DNA of 64,000 nucleotides, taken from positions 1-64,000 of the IMG/VR virus record IMGVR_UViG_3300047564_004575; one strand, 5' to 3'. Source of the stretch: a virus. Below, one piece after another: positions 3,331 through 49,250 of this stretch. The position numbers were made by a program, and so were the translations under genes. Every line of letters begins with the position of its first letter. The stretch's first letter is position 1. Below the pieces are notes generated by a model, which searched no databases, was not told the DNA's origin, and was given only the letters and a program-made list of their open reading frames with translations.

Positions 3331-3896
3331 TGCTAGAAATTGAACTTGATTTTACAGTAGAAGCCTTTTATGGGGAGATTAGCTCTGTTTTTTTAGCGTC
3401 GGAAGTCATCGAAGATCGTTCACCAACTATCAAAAAAATCACGGTAATCACTTCATTTTCTCCCTATGCAGAGGAGGAAATGTTTTTACTTAATGATCCA
3501 GAGGTGACTACTATTGATGCGGTAAAAGCTTATTACGCTAATAGTAGAAACAATGGACTAAGTGAAATTCCTATTATTAGTCTACCAATTATCGAAACGC
3601 CCCCGCCTGATTGGGATGGGCTTTACCAGACGTTGATGGTGTCTAGTGTTTACTATACATTGGTGGGCCTAGGTGAACAAATTGATGCTGTTGATGGTGC
3701 GCTAGATAAAACAATCGACGCAATTCAGTATGGAATATTTAAACCGGATTCTGTTGCTGCCATGCCTGCTTTTCAATCAGCAATTAACTTACTTTTGCTG
3801 AGGCTAACAAATAGCGAACTTGAATTGTCTACTGAACAAATTGCAGAGGTTAGAGGTGTTTTAGACACCAATGGGTTTAATTCTATTCAGTTATAA
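3327..3896 (+). CDS. hypothetical protein (possible tail fibre assembly factor)
   Basis: Acidic 189-aa ORF after the fibre-like genes; function is inference. Confidence 0.45.
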   Translation: MMLEIELDFTVEAFYGEISSVFLASEVIEDRSPTIKKITVITSFSPYAEEEMFLLNDPEVTTIDAVKAYYANSRNNGLSEIPIISLPIIETPPPDWDGLYQTLMVSSVYYTLVGLGEQIDAVDGALDKTIDAIQYGIFKPDSVAAMPAFQSAINLLLLRLTNSELELSTEQIAEVRGVLDTNGFNSIQL

Positions 3897-8375: not shown

Positions 8376-8410
8376 CAGTAGAAGGTTAATAACATCCTAA
8401 TTTTGAGTTT

Positions 8411-8482
8411 TTGCAGTCTCCTGAAGTTTCTAAAGTATATGCAACACTTTCTACAACCCTTACGGGGCAAGGATTTCAGGTT
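8411..8482 (-). repeat. dispersed ~72-bp intergenic element, copy 1
   Basis: TTGCAGTCTCCTGAAGTTTCTAAAGTATATGCAACAC...CCCTTACGGGGCAAGGATTT; reverse orientation relative to copies 3-7. Confidence 0.85.
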
Positions 8483-11960: not shown

Positions 11961-12030
11961 TTGCAGTCTCCTGGAGTTTCTAAAGTATATGCAACACTTT
12001 TTGAAAGCCTTATGCCGTAAGGGTTTGAGG
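11961..12030 (-). repeat. dispersed intergenic element, copy 2
   Basis: TTGCAGTCTCCTGGAGTTTCTAAAGTATATGCAACAC...AAAGCCTTATGCCGTAAGGGTTT. Confidence 0.85.
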
Positions 12031-17470: not shown

Positions 17471-17657
17471 AAGACTTTGCCTCCTGTTAAGGCGATAGTC
17501 AAAATCCTCCAGTTCACCGCTGGGGGTATTTTATTTACACCACTATCTTAATAAACGTTTGAGTTGTTGACATACATCCTTGGCTGTGTGCTTTTCACCC
17601 TCGTCATTCCCCATCTCAACACAGTATTTTTACCTTTAACCCTGCCCACCCCAGACA

Positions 17658-17729
17658 AACCTCAAACCCTTACCCCATAAGGCTGACAAGAAGTGTTGCA
17701 TATATCTAAAGAACTCCAGGGGACTGCAA
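17658..17729 (+). repeat. dispersed intergenic element, copy 3
   Basis: AACCTCAAACCCTTACCCCATAAGGCT...GTGTTGCATATATCTAAAGAACTCCAGGGGACTGCAA. Confidence 0.85.
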
Positions 17730-17814
17730 AAACGGGATTTTATGGGATTGTTGCATTTTGTCCGTATGCCTGATAATATAGTGAGATAACCAATCAGCCC
17801 AGAGGAGGGCTATT

Positions 17815-26881: not shown

Positions 26882-27258
26882 AACGCATTAAACACCATCA
26901 ACAGTTAAGGGAACGGATTGTAAAGGGCATGGACTCTGTCAGTGATGCCTATCAATCCGCCATGCTACAAACTATCTCCGAACCCTATCAATGGCCCGAT
27001 GGGTTTGGCGTTACTCACCGTCGCAATGGGGAAGTAGTCGTCGGCTCTAACCGTAATATCGTGGACTTGGGTAATCTTAAAAACTCCCAAACTATGTTTC
27101 GCCAGGGATTAAAAACTACCTATGAATGGTCTGGCATGGGTGAAACACCGCCAGTTATTGTCCACGAGGGAGCTACACTAGCTAACGGAACTCAAATACC
27201 ACCCCGACGCTGGACTGAGGTGGCAGTTGATAAAGTAGATTGGCAGGGATTGTTTTAG
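26878..27258 (+). CDS. putative neck/tail completion protein (HK97 gp10-like)
   Basis: RNIVDLGNLKNS...VHEG...PPRRW. Confidence 0.65.
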   Translation: MKRIKHHQQLRERIVKGMDSVSDAYQSAMLQTISEPYQWPDGFGVTHRRNGEVVVGSNRNIVDLGNLKNSQTMFRQGLKTTYEWSGMGETPPVIVHEGATLANGTQIPPRRWTEVAVDKVDWQGLF

Positions 27259-27716
27259 CCTTGAATTTTAACGATCGCCGATTTACCAAAGTTTGGTTTG
27301 ATAATTTCTCGTTTTTCTCCAGCAAGTTGTTTCCGAACCGTAGAGACTGCAGCGACTTCCGCCCCTACTATATTCAGTTCTGAAATAAATCGCTTTTGAC
27401 CATCTTGTGACAAATTAGAACAGTCAATAGATGTCTGTAATCGTCGTAATTGCTTACGTTTTTTACGGTTAGCCGCTAGGTTTTGTTTCCGAACGTAAAA
27501 TACAGCTTCCTCATCGGTCAAGATAGAAATACCGCCACTATTGGTCTTACAAACTACTTCTAATCTTGATTCGATTTGACTAACCAATTGCATCACAGCA
27601 AACGAATATTCCTGAGAGTCTACTTTATGCCCTGTAATCTTTTCGAGGTAGTCAGGGTTTATATAATCACCTTTTTGTAAGGCATCAAAATCAAAGGGAA
27701 ACTTTTCAACGTTCAT
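27255..27716 (-). CDS. hypothetical protein; candidate accessory gene of the RAMP/array locus
   Basis: 153 aa, GGAG RBS, co-oriented directly downstream of the array. Confidence 0.75.
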   Translation of the reverse strand: MNVEKFPFDFDALQKGDYINPDYLEKITGHKVDSQEYSFAVMQLVSQIESRLEVVCKTNSGGISILTDEEAVFYVRKQNLAANRKKRKQLRRLQTSIDCSNLSQDGQKRFISELNIVGAEVAAVSTVRKQLAGEKREIIKPNFGKSAIVKIQG

Positions 27717-27845
27717 TACGAAACTCCAAAATAAATAAAAAGGGAGAGGGGCAATTAAGCCCCCATTAGACTAGACTTGGCGCGACCCAACGTGACTCGA
27801 CGCGACAGGACTTGACTCGACGGAACTGAACTTGACATGGGTTTT

Positions 27846-27888
27846 GCCGTCTTCAAGAATTGCACTTGATTAAACCACTAGGGACAGC
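27846..27888 (-). ncRNA. mini tRNA-like element 1
   Basis: GCTGTC-CCTAGTGGTTTAA-TCAAG TGCAATT CTTGA-A-GACGGC. Confidence 0.75.
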
Positions 27889-27995
27889 ATGACTAGGGAG
27901 TTACCCCTAGTAATTAGACTAGACTTGACAAAACTTGACTTGACATGACATGACCGAACTCGACATGACCCAACTTGACCAAACATGATTGTTTT

Positions 27996-28037
27996 GCCCT
28001 CCGATGGAATTGCACCACCGTTAACACTAGAGAAAGC
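27996..28037 (-). ncRNA. mini tRNA-like element 2
   Basis: GCTTTC-TCTAGTGTTAA-CGGTGG TGCAATT CCATCG-GAGGGC. Confidence 0.75.
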
Positions 28038-28213
28038 ATGGGAGGGGCATAAGCCCCAAGACCTAACTAAGCTTGACTAAGCGTGACCAGTCTAAACATG
28101 GCGAACCCCGTCGAGACTCGTGACGCTATCTTAATTAGGAGAAAAACATAGACTAGACCCGACTAAACGTGGCTTGACTTGGCTGGACTGAACAAAAACG
28201 CGACTAGAAAGTT

Positions 28214-28287
28214 TGGAAGCGATACTGGGAATCGAACCCAGGATAGAGATTTTGCAGATCCCTGCCTTACCACTTGGCTATATCGCT
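28214..28287 (-). tRNA. trnC: tRNA-Cys(GCA)
   Basis: AGCGATA/TATCGCT acceptor, GCCAAGTGGTAAGGC D-arm, CT-GCA-AA loop, CTGGG-TTCGATT-CCCAG T-arm, U discriminator, encoded CCA. Confidence 0.95.
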
Positions 28288-28428
28288 TTGGAGACTAGGG
28301 AATTACCCCTAGTAATTAGACTAGACATGACCAGACGCGACTTGACGAGACGCAACCAAACAAAACGCAACCGAACATAACCGAACGCGACAAGACGCGA
28401 CTAAACCTAACACAACTCGATTGTTTTT

Positions 28429-28471
28429 GCCCCTTGCCAGAATTGCACTGGCTTAAACCACTAGGAGAGGC
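28429..28471 (-). ncRNA. mini tRNA-like element 3
   Basis: GCCTCT-CCTAGTGGTTTAA-GCCAG TGCAATT CTGGC-A-AGGGGC. Confidence 0.75.
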
Positions 28472-28576
28472 GTGACTAGGGGAATTAACCCCTAGTAATT
28501 AGACTTGACGCGACGCGACCTGGCAAAACATAACCCGACACGGCGGAACCAAACAAAACTCAGCAAGAAAATCTGT

Positions 28577-29197
28577 TTAGAGTTCGACTTTAAAGCGACC
28601 AAACTCAGGACGGCGATCGCATAGTCCGATGATTTTGCCGCTTAGATGCAAGATATCAGCAATGTCAGCTTGGTTTACAACATCTGGCATATAGTCAACA
28701 ACGATTTCCGCTTCCCATGACCGGAAAATAGGACGGGTACGCATAATAGCATTCTTCATCACACGCTCAGCCCGAACGTCAACATAGTTGGCATCCGCCC
28801 ATAACTCGTTAGTTCCTTTGTTAGTCCCAATGTCAAGACGGGCATCTTCACTAATCACAATCCCAGCTTTAAACGTCGTCCCAAGCTTCTTCTTTTTAGC
28901 ACCTGACAAAAGCATCCCTTTAATAACCGTAGCAGGTAAGCATGGCTTGCTATTGTCGGTAAAAGCAATGTCTGCCCCGTCAACGTCTAGATTGTGTTGA
29001 CCTTCCAGATAAAGACCGGCATACCATTCTAATTTGCTGATAACGTCGAGGTCATCTTCAACCTTTTTGCGCTTGCCGGTGTATTGCTTAATCAGTTGCG
29101 TGATGCCATTGCGAGGATTGACCAGAATATTGGCATTGTGCATTAACAGGGGAGTGTGTCCTATTAACTTTGCTTGCAGTGTTTTAAAACCGTCCAT
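28577..29197 (-). CDS. solitary RAMP/Cas7-like RNA-binding protein
   Basis: N-terminal strand + TPLLMH, P.LPATVIKG.L (cf. RAMP P.IPGSSLKG), C-terminal G-loop IGLCDRRPEFGRFKV. Confidence 0.75.
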   Translation of the reverse strand: MDGFKTLQAKLIGHTPLLMHNANILVNPRNGITQLIKQYTGKRKKVEDDLDVISKLEWYAGLYLEGQHNLDVDGADIAFTDNSKPCLPATVIKGMLLSGAKKKKLGTTFKAGIVISEDARLDIGTNKGTNELWADANYVDVRAERVMKNAIMRTRPIFRSWEAEIVVDYMPDVVNQADIADILHLSGKIIGLCDRRPEFGRFKVEL

Positions 29198-29226
29198 ACT
29201 TGCCTCGATGAATTTCTATATAAATC

Positions 29227-29255
29227 ATATTACCTGGCACACTGTTATTTGTCAA
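29227..29255 (-). promoter_or_regulatory. sigma70-type promoter for the RAMP gene and array
   Basis: TTGACA (29250-29255), 17 bp, TAATAT (29227-29232); GAGG RBS at 29203-29206. Confidence 0.75.
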
Positions 29256-29339
29256 CCAAAAAAGAATATGTAATGGACTTAATTTGTTTTGCCATCAAAT
29301 ATATGTGACCAAGTGGCGATCGCCACCCACCCCCATATA

Positions 29340-29411
29340 AACCCAAAACCCATACACCGTAAGGCTTTCAAAAAGTGTTGCATATACTTTAGAAACTCCA
29401 GGGGACTGCAA
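29340..29411 (+). repeat. dispersed intergenic element, copy 4
   Basis: AAAACCCATACACCGTAAGGCTTT...GTGTTGCATATACTTTAGAAACTCCAGGGGACTGCAA. Confidence 0.85.
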
Positions 29412-29476
29412 AAACTCCCCAACGGCAATAAAAAACCCGCCTAGATGACGGGATGATTGATTAGACTTCAGATGTT

Positions 29477-30217: not shown

Positions 30218-30401
30218 TAGTGAACGCTCCTTTTTAGCGGTTACTCATTGCTCCGGCTGCTCTTACAGCGCGGGGCACTTTTATTTACATCACTATCCTA
30301 AAACACAAATTGCTAAACATTCCAAAGCCCATCAAATATATGTAACCAAGTGGCGATCGCCGCCCCCTTTTAGCCTGACATAGCCAACAAACTGAACTAT
30401 T

Positions 30402-49160: not shown

Positions 49161-49176
49161 GCCCATCCGCAAAATT

Positions 49177-49250
49177 AACCTCAAACCTATACACCGTAAG
49201 GATTCTAAAAAGTGTTGCATATACCTTAGAAACTTCAGGTATATGCAACA
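49177..49250 (+). repeat. dispersed intergenic element, copy 6 (perfect 14-bp inverted repeat)
   Basis: TGTTGCATATACCT-TAGAAACTTC-AGGTATATGCAACA at 49213-49250. Confidence 0.88.

What the first reader, a model, noticed from the sequence alone, without database searches (positions are those of the whole stretch)
27255..29255. Phage-encoded RAMP/Cas7-like protein with a non-CRISPR repeat RNA array: candidate RNA-guided system
Seen: one minus-strand unit of promoter (TTGACA-17-TAATAT), 206-aa gene, ~850 bp of highly patterned non-coding DNA starting about 10 bp after its stop codon, then a 153-aa gene. Established: the protein carries the three RAMP-superfamily hallmarks (first strand + TPL, P.LP....KG.L, C-terminal G-loop G...R..FGRF.V), and Cas7/RAMP proteins polymerise along guide RNAs with a fixed nucleotide step. 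No cas1/2/3/5/6/8/10 genes and no CRISPR array are visible in the window. Inference: the protein forms a filament on RNAs from the array, one subunit per 5-nt unit, gripping the constant triplet and displaying the variable dinucleotide to recognise nucleic acid targets, plausibly rival phages or host genes. From memory this resembles recently reported viral programmable-repeat (VIPR-type) systems with GGY/NN units; I cannot verify that here. This locus uses GUY/NN, so it would at least be a distinct variant.
Basis: partly seen in the sequence, partly recalled or inferred. Interest (0 to 1): 0.96.

Follow-up and report, generated by a model that had tools for sequence, protein, structure and literature searches.

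The report
Cyanophage VIPR system with GUY guides
A freshwater cyanophage carries a genuine VIPR system (a CRISPR-like RNA-guided DNA silencer described in 2026), unusual because its guides use G-U-Y instead of G-G-Y and are separated by a tRNA gene and tRNA-like hairpins.

Summary
On the minus strand lie a sigma-70-like promoter, a 206-aa gene, 860 bp holding six phased tracts of 9-20 pentamers, and a 153-aa gene.

The protein matches the solved SUSP1 Vipr protein over its whole length (PDB 36pp, E 5.3e-16). Its model (pLDDT 95) resembles Csm3/Cas7. This is therefore a VIPR system, a class in print since April 2026 (bioRxiv 10.64898/2026.04.26.720920). This scan has noted VIPR systems many times on other DNA.

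Three things are unusual:
- The constant triplet is G-U-Y, not G-G-Y. The G-loop tryptophan that stacks on G2 in SUSP1 is arginine here. Among 83 loci only this phage and its one relative share both traits.
- A real tRNA-Cys and three covarying tRNA-like minihelices separate the guides. I found no such layout in the VIPR texts I searched.
- The host is a cyanobacterium.

Non-canonical triplets are already in print, among them GAC/NN, which may be this motif read on the other strand. No RNA data and no convincing target were found. Verdict: a new variant of a known kind.

The parts
29227..29255 (-). Sigma-70-like promoter TTGACA-17-TAATAT upstream of vipr
   Evidence: Consensus scan, 10 of 12 positions. 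A similar promoter precedes vipr in the related phage locus L001 (read). Function not shown.
28577..29197 (-). vipr: 206-aa Vipr (RAMP/Cas7-like) protein
   Evidence: PDB 36pp 'SUSP1 Vipr protein' E 5.3e-16 over full length. phrog_4652 E 5.7e-39. AF2 pLDDT 95.2. Foldseek top hits are Csm3/Cas7, E about 1e-5. 144 homologues found.
28500..28576 (-). vrRNA 1: 12-nt stretch after the stop codon that is part of a leader-like motif (also in front of L001 guides), then 13 G-Y-Y-N-N pentamers
   Evidence: The same leader precedes guides in L001.
28475..28499 (-). Tail of vrRNA 1: AUUA plus an 8-bp hairpin (CUAGGGG..CCCCUAG)
   Evidence: MFE fold, z -3.58 for the 89-nt stretch. The same hairpin follows vrRNA 2 and vrRNA 5.
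28417..28476 (-). tRNA-like minihelix 1 (6-bp acceptor-like stem, 5-bp T-arm-like stem, 7-nt loop UGCAAUU)
   Evidence: Covariation 44 of 44 cells paired, 7 of 11 pairs compensatory. Covariance-model hit of 77 bits. MFE fold.
28288..28416 (-). vrRNA 2: 20 pentamers (28317-28416) plus hairpin tail (28294-28313)
28214..28287 (-). tRNA-Cys (GCA), occupying the slot that the minihelices hold in other units
   Evidence: ARAGORN. Rfam tRNA 65 bits, E 2.9e-13.
28149..28193 (-). vrRNA 3: 9 pentamers, no hairpin tail, one register slip just upstream
28044..28117 (-). vrRNA 4: 12 partly degenerate pentamers (28058-28117) plus GGGGC..GCCCC hairpin (28044-28057)
27985..28042 (-). tRNA-like minihelix 2
   Evidence: Covariance-model hit of 71.9 bits. 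Covariation.
27892..27984 (-). vrRNA 5: 14 pentamers (27915-27984) plus hairpin tail (27892-27911)
27835..27893 (-). tRNA-like minihelix 3
   Evidence: Covariance-model hit of 78.5 bits. Covariation.
27767..27836 (-). vrRNA 6: 14 pentamers
27747..27764 (-). Terminator-like hairpin plus T-run after vrRNA 6, just upstream of vap
   Evidence: The only terminator-like site in 27100-29450. Fold.
27255..27716 (-). vap-like accessory gene, 153 aa: predicted winged-helix-like N-domain and two long helices
   Evidence: AF2 pLDDT 75. Family of 999 representatives at E <= 1e-3. A family member lies next to vipr on the same strand in 23 of 83 loci. 54% identical homologue in L001. No Pfam family.

Best explanation
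This is a VIPR (Viral Interference Programmable Repeat) system of a freshwater cyanophage.

Shown here:
- The 206-aa protein is a homologue of the solved SUSP1 Vipr and has a RAMP fold.
- It is followed on the same strand by six tracts of G-[U>C]-Y-N-N pentamers with near-random NN.
- A ~150-aa gene of a family that often sits next to vipr closes the unit.
- One related phage (78% identical Vipr) has the same layout with entirely different NN.

Inferred from the published SUSP1 work:
- The tracts are transcribed into vrRNAs.
- One Vipr protomer binds each pentamer and sequesters the constant triplet.
- The exposed NN pairs with double-stranded DNA, skipping every third target base, and silences transcription of a competing mobile element. 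The vap protein helps.

Specific to this clade, and inferred:
- Position 2 of the triplet is U instead of G. This is because the G-loop tryptophan that stacks on G2 in SUSP1 (W178) is arginine here (R195). The residues that read G1 (H20, D194) and Y3 (R196) and the thumb arginine (R155) are kept.
- The polycistronic array is cut into single guides by host RNase P and RNase Z at one real tRNA-Cys and at three tRNA-like acceptor/T-arm minihelices.
- Other guides appear to have their own -10-like box, leader or terminator.
For: Protein:
- phmmer against PDB gives 36pp_D 'SUSP1 Vipr protein', E 5.3e-16, query 5-206 against chain 2-189.
- The AF2 model has pLDDT 95.2. Its Foldseek PDB hits are led by Csm3/Cas7 chains, E 1e-5 to 1e-4, with 61 hits at E <= 0.001.

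Array:
- Six phased tracts, unique in the window.
- Column composition G 96 / T 92 / C 69 + T 31 / N / N.

Relatives:
- 537 viral stretches encode relatives, and the best 80 were kept.
- In my table of 83 loci (window, 80 viral, 2 metagenomic), 64 have a detected period-5 array on the vipr strand.
- The related phage L001 has vipr, 4 guides, vap, then 2 guides. All its NN differ from the window's.

Residue mapping through the HMMER alignment, onto the contacts described in 720927 section 5:
- H17 to H20, D177 to D194, R138 to R155, R179 to R196 and K33 to K37 are all kept.
- W178 becomes R195.

Correlation:
- 72 loci have W, Y or F at that position. 54 of them have a detected array, and all 54 arrays contain GG.
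- The 2 loci with Arg (window and L001) have GUC/GUU.
- The 1 locus with Asn (L031) has G at 74% and T at 25% at position 2.

vap: a family member sits next to vipr in 23 of 83 loci.

Punctuation:
- tRNA-Cys scores 65 bits.
- In the minihelices 44 of 44 cells pair and 7 of 11 pairs carry compensatory changes. 0 of 500 shuffles reach that, and slid controls pair in 32-59% of cells.
- MFE folds give the same helices without being told.

Context:
- The record is a virus contig with terminase and portal genes.
- It has 49 HIP1 sites against about 1 expected.
- No guide matches its own genome above chance, as the paper reports for its systems.
- The locus is identical in a second freshwater study.
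Against: - No RNA run holds the locus, so transcription, processing sites and RNP formation are untested.
- No natural target was found (see Tried and rejected), so the skip rule and the function are carried over from a protein only about 26% identical by tblastn to Felixounavirus relatives of SUSP1.
- The Arg/U link rests on one clade (window plus L001), so it is one evolutionary event and not a statistical correlation.
- 18 of the 72 aromatic loci had no array by my strict detector.
- The minihelices are not recognised by the Rfam tRNA model or by ARAGORN. They exist in only 4 copies in 2 phages. They could be 3' caps rather than cleavage signals.
- Guides 3 and 4 are degenerate.
- The vap has no significant similarity to the gene next to vipr in the Felixounavirus wV8 or in LESphi2 (hhalign E 0.013 and 0.0046, probability 3-8%).
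Confidence: 0.85

Rival explanations
1. It is a VIPR system, but the three minihelices are structural 3' caps of the vrRNAs, the counterpart of the SUSP1 3' pseudoknot that caps the filament. They are not RNase P/Z cleavage signals. Guides would then be made from separate promoters and terminators, and the tRNA-Cys would just be a phage tRNA gene that landed in the array.
For: - SUSP1 vrRNAs end in a conserved structured tail (720927 section 6).
- Several guides here and in L001 are preceded by a leader-like motif with -10-like boxes, and some are followed by hairpin plus T-run.
- The Rfam tRNA model does not score the minihelices.
Against: - Each guide already has its own hairpin tail upstream of the minihelix.
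- The real tRNA occupies exactly the slot of a minihelix, directly after the same hairpin.
- The element has an acceptor-like stem directly abutting a T-arm-like stem with a 7-nt loop. That is the minimal RNase P/Z substrate by established tRNA biology (recalled, not tested).
Confidence: 0.3
2. It is a VIPR relative with a different reading rule or substrate, such as RNA targets or a skip other than one base. On this view, applying the SUSP1 rule is why no target was found.
For: - All 7 exact-seed scans and the 401-genome scan failed to give a convincing 1-nt-skip target.
- The triplet and one of its contact residues differ from SUSP1.
Against: - The thumb arginine and the bundle lysine that accommodate the single skipped base are conserved (R155, K37).
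- In the locally held 681 kb, skips of 0, 1 and 2 were all at the level of shuffled guides, so no other rule did better.
- The databases may simply lack the rival element.
Confidence: 0.1
3. It is a decaying or inactive locus: a remnant array with a Vipr gene that no longer works.
For: Guides 3 and 4 are degenerate and guide 3 lacks a tail.
Against: - The ORF is intact and 117 columns are invariant across the six clade members at 67-100% identity, including all mapped RNA-contact residues.
- Four guides keep a perfect or near-perfect scaffold.
- The locus is identical in two studies.
- L001 keeps the same architecture with different NN.
Confidence: 0.04
4. The periodic tracts act as DNA (protein-binding iterons or curved DNA) and are not RNA genes.
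For: No RNA evidence is available.
Against: - The strand-specific G-Y-Y-N-N pattern is always on the vipr strand in relatives.
- The homologue's tracts are proven vrRNAs.
- Covarying RNA helices and a tRNA are interleaved on the same strand.
Confidence: 0.02

Closest known systems
Type II VIPR of Escherichia phage SUSP1 (Vipr, vap1, four vrRNAs; PDB 36pp; bioRxiv 10.64898/2026.04.26.720920, .720927, 10.64898/2026.10.15.759431)
   Same: - Homologous Vipr protein, full length, E 5.3e-16.
- Phage-encoded minimal locus of vipr plus one small accessory gene.
- Guides of tandem pentamers with three constant and two hypervariable positions, plus a structured 3' tail.
- No self-targets.
- Contact residues for G1, Y3, the thumb and the skipped base are conserved.
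   Different: - The triplet is G-U-Y (U > C at position 2), not G-G-Y.
- The G-loop has Arg in place of W178.
- The tail is a simple 8-bp hairpin; no pseudoknot was detected.
- The array lies between vipr and vap.
- One tract has 20 units against the 9-16 reported.
- The vap is not detectably related to the gene beside vipr in the SUSP1-like phage wV8.
- The host is a cyanobacterium.
- Nothing here was shown experimentally.
Non-canonical VIPR arrays reported from genomic language models: 'NNNGG, YNNNG, NNNNG' (720920 Methods) and '21 clusters ... e.g. GAC/NN or CAC/NN ... WGT/NN or TGH/NN' (bioRxiv 10.64898/2026.10.21.760802)
   Same: - Vipr-linked period-5 arrays whose constant triplet is not GGY.
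- Read on the opposite strand, this array is [G/A]-A-C-N-N, which is GAC/NN.
- Read from position 2, it fits Y-N-N-N-G.
   Different: - I saw only passages and one Methods section. The figures and supplements that show the logos are not available to me, so identity with those clusters is unproven.
- Neither text, in the passages I read or searched, links the motif change to a G-loop residue or mentions tRNA-type spacers.
Hammerhead-ribozyme-interspersed vrRNA arrays (VIPR types I and V, 720920 fig. S19 legend)
   Same: Guides in one array are separated by a structured RNA element that would release single guides.
   Different: Here the separators are a tRNA gene and tRNA-like minihelices, so cutting would be by host enzymes and not self-cleavage. 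No hammerhead or other Rfam ribozyme was found.
Csm3/Cas7 backbone subunits of type III CRISPR-Cas effectors
   Same: Same RAMP fold (Foldseek E about 1e-5, TM 0.36-0.51), with a G-loop and a thumb. The subunits polymerise along a guide RNA with a fixed step.
   Different: There is no CRISPR array and no Cas1. The step is five nucleotides with three sequestered. There is a single small RAMP and no second RRM.
Engineered polycistronic tRNA-gRNA arrays for CRISPR multiplexing (recalled from general knowledge, no paper consulted)
   Same: Guides are released from one transcript by RNase P/Z cutting at interspersed tRNAs.
   Different: This one would be natural, it mixes one real tRNA with anticodon-less minihelices, and the processing is only inferred.

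Membership tests
VIPR system | Vipr protein: homologue of the characterised Vipr RAMP | tested here: met
   PDB 36pp_D SUSP1 Vipr, E 5.3e-16, query 5-206 against chain 2-189. tblastn hits in 129 phage records, including 77 Escherichia and 6 Felixounavirus records.
VIPR system | RAMP fold with RRM core, glycine-rich loop and thumb | tested here: met
   AF2 pLDDT 95.2. Csm3/Cas7 chains lead the Foldseek PDB hits. The C-terminal G-loop G..CDRRPEFGRF aligns with GVGDWRPRFGRF of SUSP1. A beta-hairpin at 139-158 sits at the thumb position.
VIPR system | Adjacent same-strand tandem pentamers, three constant and two hypervariable positions, about 9-16 units | tested here: met
   Six tracts of 9-20 units. 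NN is near-uniform. NN is entirely different in the 78%-identical relative L001.
VIPR system | Constant triplet G-G-Y | tested here: not met
   Position 2 is T in 80-92% of units and C in about 10%. The paper itself allows 'a related consensus', so this does not exclude membership.
VIPR system | Invariant structured 3' tail after the repeat tract | tested here: met
   Constant GUCUA(GUCUA)AUUA plus an 8-bp hairpin follows guides 1, 2 and 5. Other G-C hairpins follow guides 4 and 6. Guide 3 has none. No pseudoknot was tested for.
VIPR system | Accessory vap gene in the unit | tested here: met
   The 153-aa gene belongs to a family found beside vipr in 23 of 83 loci. It could not be assigned to vap1-6 because the supplements are closed. 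Similarity to wV8 gp94 and LESphi2 P21_8 is not significant.
VIPR system | No CRISPR array or adaptation genes; viral context | tested here: met
   No CRISPR-like repeat. No Cas1. Virus record with terminase and portal genes. Other cas families were not searched one by one.
VIPR system | vrRNAs are expressed and co-purify with Vipr | not testable with these tools
   No listed run is on record as RNA.
VIPR system | Targets obey the one-base-skip rule | tested here: inconclusive
   No convincing target was found in the phage itself, in 681 kb of held loci, in 7 exact-seed scans of IMG/VR, or in 401 cyanobacterial genomes for guide 6.
CRISPR-Cas class 1 effector (Cas7) | CRISPR repeat-spacer array and cas1/cas2 or other cas genes nearby | tested here: not met
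   Only the fold is shared.
tRNA (for the three minihelices) | Cloverleaf recognised by tRNA models | tested here: not met
   ARAGORN calls only tRNA-Cys. Rfam tRNA hits only 28217-28287, even at E <= 10 on a 221-nt stretch. The minihelices have two of the four arms.

The most novel reading that the evidence does not exclude
The scaffold letters of VIPR guides are themselves evolvable and are set by a single G-loop residue. Trp/Tyr/Phe reads G2 and Arg reads U2. That would give this cyanophage an orthogonal Vipr-guide pair that G-G-Y guides from rivals or satellites cannot load or hijack.

The same phage has also recruited the host tRNA-processing machinery, through a real tRNA and anticodon-less tRNA mimics, to cut a natural multi-guide transcript. 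That would be the natural counterpart of engineered tRNA-gRNA arrays.
Probability: 0.4. Interest if true: 0.7.

Novelty: new variant of a known kind. Interest (0 to 1): 0.5.

Why it matters
VIPR is a months-old class. Its published mechanism rests on G-G-Y guides from enterobacterial and Pseudomonas phages.

This locus offers a natural experiment on how the protein reads the constant triplet. It has one contact residue changed (W178 to R195) and one scaffold base changed (G2 to U2), with everything else kept.

If the link is causal, it gives a rule for building mutually orthogonal Vipr-guide pairs. It would also explain how a phage can escape decoy guides, a form of conflict reported for SUSP1 satellites in 10.64898/2026.10.15.759431 (passages seen).

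The tRNA and tRNA-like separators would be a third way of making single guides, after staggered and hammerhead arrays. It would be one that depends on host enzymes.

The locus also extends VIPR to freshwater cyanophages, where inter-phage conflict is little studied.

Tried and rejected
Target search. None of it gave a convincing target.
- Own genome, skips 0-3: the best hits were 60-71% of NN, the same for every rule. The only perfect hits were the array itself at skip 3.
- All held loci plus the genome (681 kb), 12 guides from the window and L001: every guide was at the level of guides with shuffled unit order.
- IMG/VR exact seeds under the one-skip rule:
  - guide 6, 9 units: 0 hits
  - guide 5, 10 units: 0 hits
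  - guide 2, units 4-11: 21 hits
  - guide 1, units 3-10: 2 hits
  - guide 2, units 10-17: 40 hits
  - guide 6, units 1-8: 44 hits
  - guide 5, units 1-8: 28 hits
- Extending these hits in register: the best were 30 of 40 (L091, a G+C-rich contig), 22 of 28, and 21 of 26 (L107, only 5 of 10 outside the seed). None is convincing.
- 401 cyanobacterial genomes, guide 6, up to 3 mismatches in 24: 4 hits against 1 for the backward control.
  - Two hits are one conserved 741-743-aa gene in two genomes.
  - The best (L230) reaches 25 of 28 with the two constant TA units. It lies in the 3' end of a Rieske-type oxygenase ORF, on the other strand, with the skip not at wobble positions.
  - I read this as chance, roughly p 0.03 by my own estimate, and guides 1-5 were not run there.

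Expression. No RNA holder was listed for the locus. Laying four DNA runs showed the locus identical in a second study. A third study holds a 97%-identical vipr fragment and a contig that keeps the guide-5 tail and minihelix but diverges on both flanks. That is only a weak hint of guide turnover.

More members of the Arg/GUY clade.
- The search for related loci with the clade alignment found only distant relatives in metagenome contigs (2 loci, 32% identity) and none in genome contigs.

vap.
- No Pfam or NCBIfam family; PHROGs hits only at E >= 0.12.
- No PDB fold match at E <= 0.001.
- The relation to the vipr neighbours of wV8 and LESphi2 is not significant.

Minihelices. No Rfam family matched. 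The covariance model found them in no other Vipr locus. Of the 60 Vipr loci scanned for tRNAs, out of the 82 held at that point, 3 have a tRNA gene in the fetched stretch and none lies inside the array.

Not done.
Those supplements may also show that this motif is already listed.

Full report
**What is there.** The window is the first 64 kb of a 72,660-base linear virus record, estimated 77% complete. It carries a large terminase and a portal-like gene next to the finding. It has 49 copies of GCGATCGC, where about one is expected. By general knowledge this is the HIP1 signature of cyanobacterial genomes and their phages. The DNA is held by freshwater metagenomes from three studies.

On the minus strand the unit reads as follows:
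- a TTGACA-17-TAATAT promoter-like site at 29255-29227
- a 206-aa ORF at 28577-29197
- 860 bp without an ORF that has any family support
- a 153-aa ORF at 27255-27716

**The periodic DNA.** A phase-aware scan finds six tracts of 13, 20, 9, 12, 14 and 14 pentamers on the minus strand and nothing comparable elsewhere in the window. Shuffled windows give 0-3 short runs. Pooled columns are G 96%, U 92%, C 69% / U 31%, followed by two near-uniform positions. A looser detector gives 98, 80 and 61/34. So the unit is G-[U>C]-Y-N-N. Five of the six tracts end in one or two constant GUCUA units. Guides 1, 2 and 5 continue with AUUA and an 8-bp hairpin. Guides 4 and 6 have other G-C hairpins, and guide 3 has none.

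**The protein.** Pfam and NCBIfam give nothing. PHROGs gives an unnamed family, phrog_4652, at E 5.7e-39. Against PDB sequences the protein matches 36pp chain D, 'SUSP1 Vipr protein', at E 5.3e-16 over residues 5-206 against 2-189. An AlphaFold model built on 32 homologues has pLDDT 95.2. Its Foldseek hits in the PDB are led by Csm3/Cas7 subunits of type III effectors at E about 1e-5. The protein is therefore a Vipr.

**What VIPR is, from the papers.** bioRxiv 10.64898/2026.04.26.720920 (Results and Methods sections 18, 20, 26 and 27 read) describes the system:
- It consists of a Vipr RAMP, a vap gene, and vrRNAs of 9-16 Y-N-N-G-G repeats with an invariant 3' tail.
- The RNAs co-purify with Vipr.
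- The NN positions pair with double-stranded DNA while skipping one target base per unit.
- The complex represses transcription.
- Natural targets are satellites and prophages.
- There are seven types. Array variants include staggered and hammerhead-interspersed forms, and alternative repeats are written NNNGG, YNNNG and NNNNG.

bioRxiv 10.64898/2026.04.26.720927 (sections 5 and 6 read) gives the RNA contacts:
- G1 is read by H17 and D177.
- G2 is held by R138 and stacks on W178.
- Y3 is read by R179, E71, M72 and neighbours.
- K33 sits at the skipped base.

**Relatives.** A pattern scan of IMG/VR found 537 stretches encoding relatives, and the best 80 were kept. I tabulated 83 loci: the window, these 80, and 2 metagenomic loci. 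Of these, 64 have a period-5 array on the vipr strand by a strict detector.

Only one fetched locus is close. L001 has a Vipr 78% identical to the window's. It has the same promoter position, four guides, a vap homologue (54% identical), then two more guides. All its NN differ from the window's, while the G-Y-Y scaffold is kept. This is the hypervariable-guide behaviour expected of vrRNAs.

The 153-aa protein belongs to a family of 999 representatives at E <= 1e-3. Members of it lie beside vipr on the same strand in 23 of the 83 loci. Its model (pLDDT 75) shows a helix-helix-hairpin N-domain and two long helices. This is compatible with the DNA-binding vaps of the paper, but no structural match was significant.

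**The scaffold change.** I mapped the SUSP1 contacts through the HMMER alignment:
- H17 maps to H20, D177 to D194, R138 to R155, R179 to R196 and K33 to K37. All are kept.
- W178 is R195 here.
- E71 and M72 are T90 and V91.

All six members of the close clade (67-100% identical) have C-D-R-R-P in the G-loop. In the 83-locus table:
- 72 loci have W, Y or F at this position. The 54 of them with a detected array all have GG.
- The two loci with Arg have GUC/GUU.
- The one locus with Asn (L031) has G 74% / T 25% at position 2.

The pattern fits the structure, but it is one clade, hence one event. I rate a causal link at about even odds.

**Guide separators.** A bona fide tRNA-Cys(GCA) lies at 28214-28287 on the array strand, directly after the hairpin tail of guide 2. 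I followed a lead from other first-stage notes on this genome and examined the stretches after guides 1, 4 and 5, plus one stretch in L001.

All four form a 6-bp stem enclosing a 5-bp stem with the 7-nt loop UGCAAUU (UGUAAUU in L001). The 3' strand of the inner stem abuts the 3' strand of the outer stem, as in the acceptor/T-arm stack of a tRNA. The evidence is:
- 44 of 44 cells pair, and 7 of 11 pairs show compensatory changes.
- 0 of 500 shuffles reach these values, and slid partners pair in only 32-59% of cells.
- Thermodynamic folds recover the helices unaided.
- A covariance model finds only these four copies in the window and 84 loci.
- No Rfam family, tRNA included, matches them.

By established tRNA biology (recalled), such minihelices are substrates of RNase P and RNase Z. 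I therefore infer host-enzyme processing of a polycistronic guide transcript. The rival reading is that they are 3' caps. The words 'tRNA' and 'cyano' do not occur in the main texts of 720920 and 759431, nor 'tRNA' in that of 720927.

**What it does.** I carry the mechanism over from SUSP1: one protomer per pentamer, triplet sequestered, NN displayed, double-stranded DNA bound with a one-base skip, transcription of a rival element silenced, and vap assisting.

Targets were sought and not found, as detailed in Tried and rejected. The single hit above 80% (25 of 28, in a host oxygenase gene of one cyanobacterium) has the wrong strand and frame properties and is probably chance. As in the paper, the phage does not target itself. 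No RNA data exist for the locus.

**Novelty.** The class is in print, and this scan has met it many times on other DNA. Non-GGY triplets are also in print. bioRxiv 10.64898/2026.10.21.760802 (passages and section 4.22 read) reports 21 non-canonical clusters with examples such as GAC/NN. That is what this array reads on its other strand. The YNNNG of 720920 would also fit if read from position 2.

What I could not find in the texts available is the residue-to-base link, the tRNA and tRNA-like punctuation, or a cyanophage example. I therefore file it as a new variant of a known kind, with moderate interest.

Noticed in passing
window 29326-29417, with copies at 8405-8465, 11961-12026, 17645-17733, 49174-49239, partial 30329-30365, and genome 69407-69484: A 60-90-bp intergenic element containing GGCGATCGCC lies just upstream of the vipr promoter and recurs at five or more other places in the phage at 83-92% identity. 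It may be a shared regulatory site or a small mobile repeat.
   Followed up: partly
L023, L031, L054, L025 (IMG/VR loci with Vipr homologues): Their arrays have G-G-A rather than G-G-Y as the constant triplet (A at 85-93% of position 3). So the pyrimidine at position 3 is not universal among close Vipr relatives either.
   Followed up: no
L084 (Escherichia phage wV8, EU877232.1) 2268-2325 and 3661-3718: The 2008-era GenBank annotation already marks 'repeat_region DR_4' on both sides of the vipr homologue (gene 95) and its neighbour (gene 94). These are probably its vrRNA tails or arrays, noted long before VIPR was named.
   Followed up: no
L001 4625-5147 and 5625-5830; window 28565-28576 and 28194-28213: A leader-like motif precedes five of the six L001 guides and guide 1 of the window, with a degenerate copy after the tRNA-Cys. 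-10-like boxes (TAAAAT, TATAAAT, TAAGAT) lie a few bases upstream of several. This suggests some guides have their own start sites.
   Followed up: partly
window 27833-27919, run X6 record 25: A 152-nt contig from a third study matches the guide-5 tail and minihelix with one difference, but its flanks do not align. In the same run, a 207-nt contig matches vipr with 7 differences. This suggests a sister phage with the same separators and different guides.
   Followed up: no
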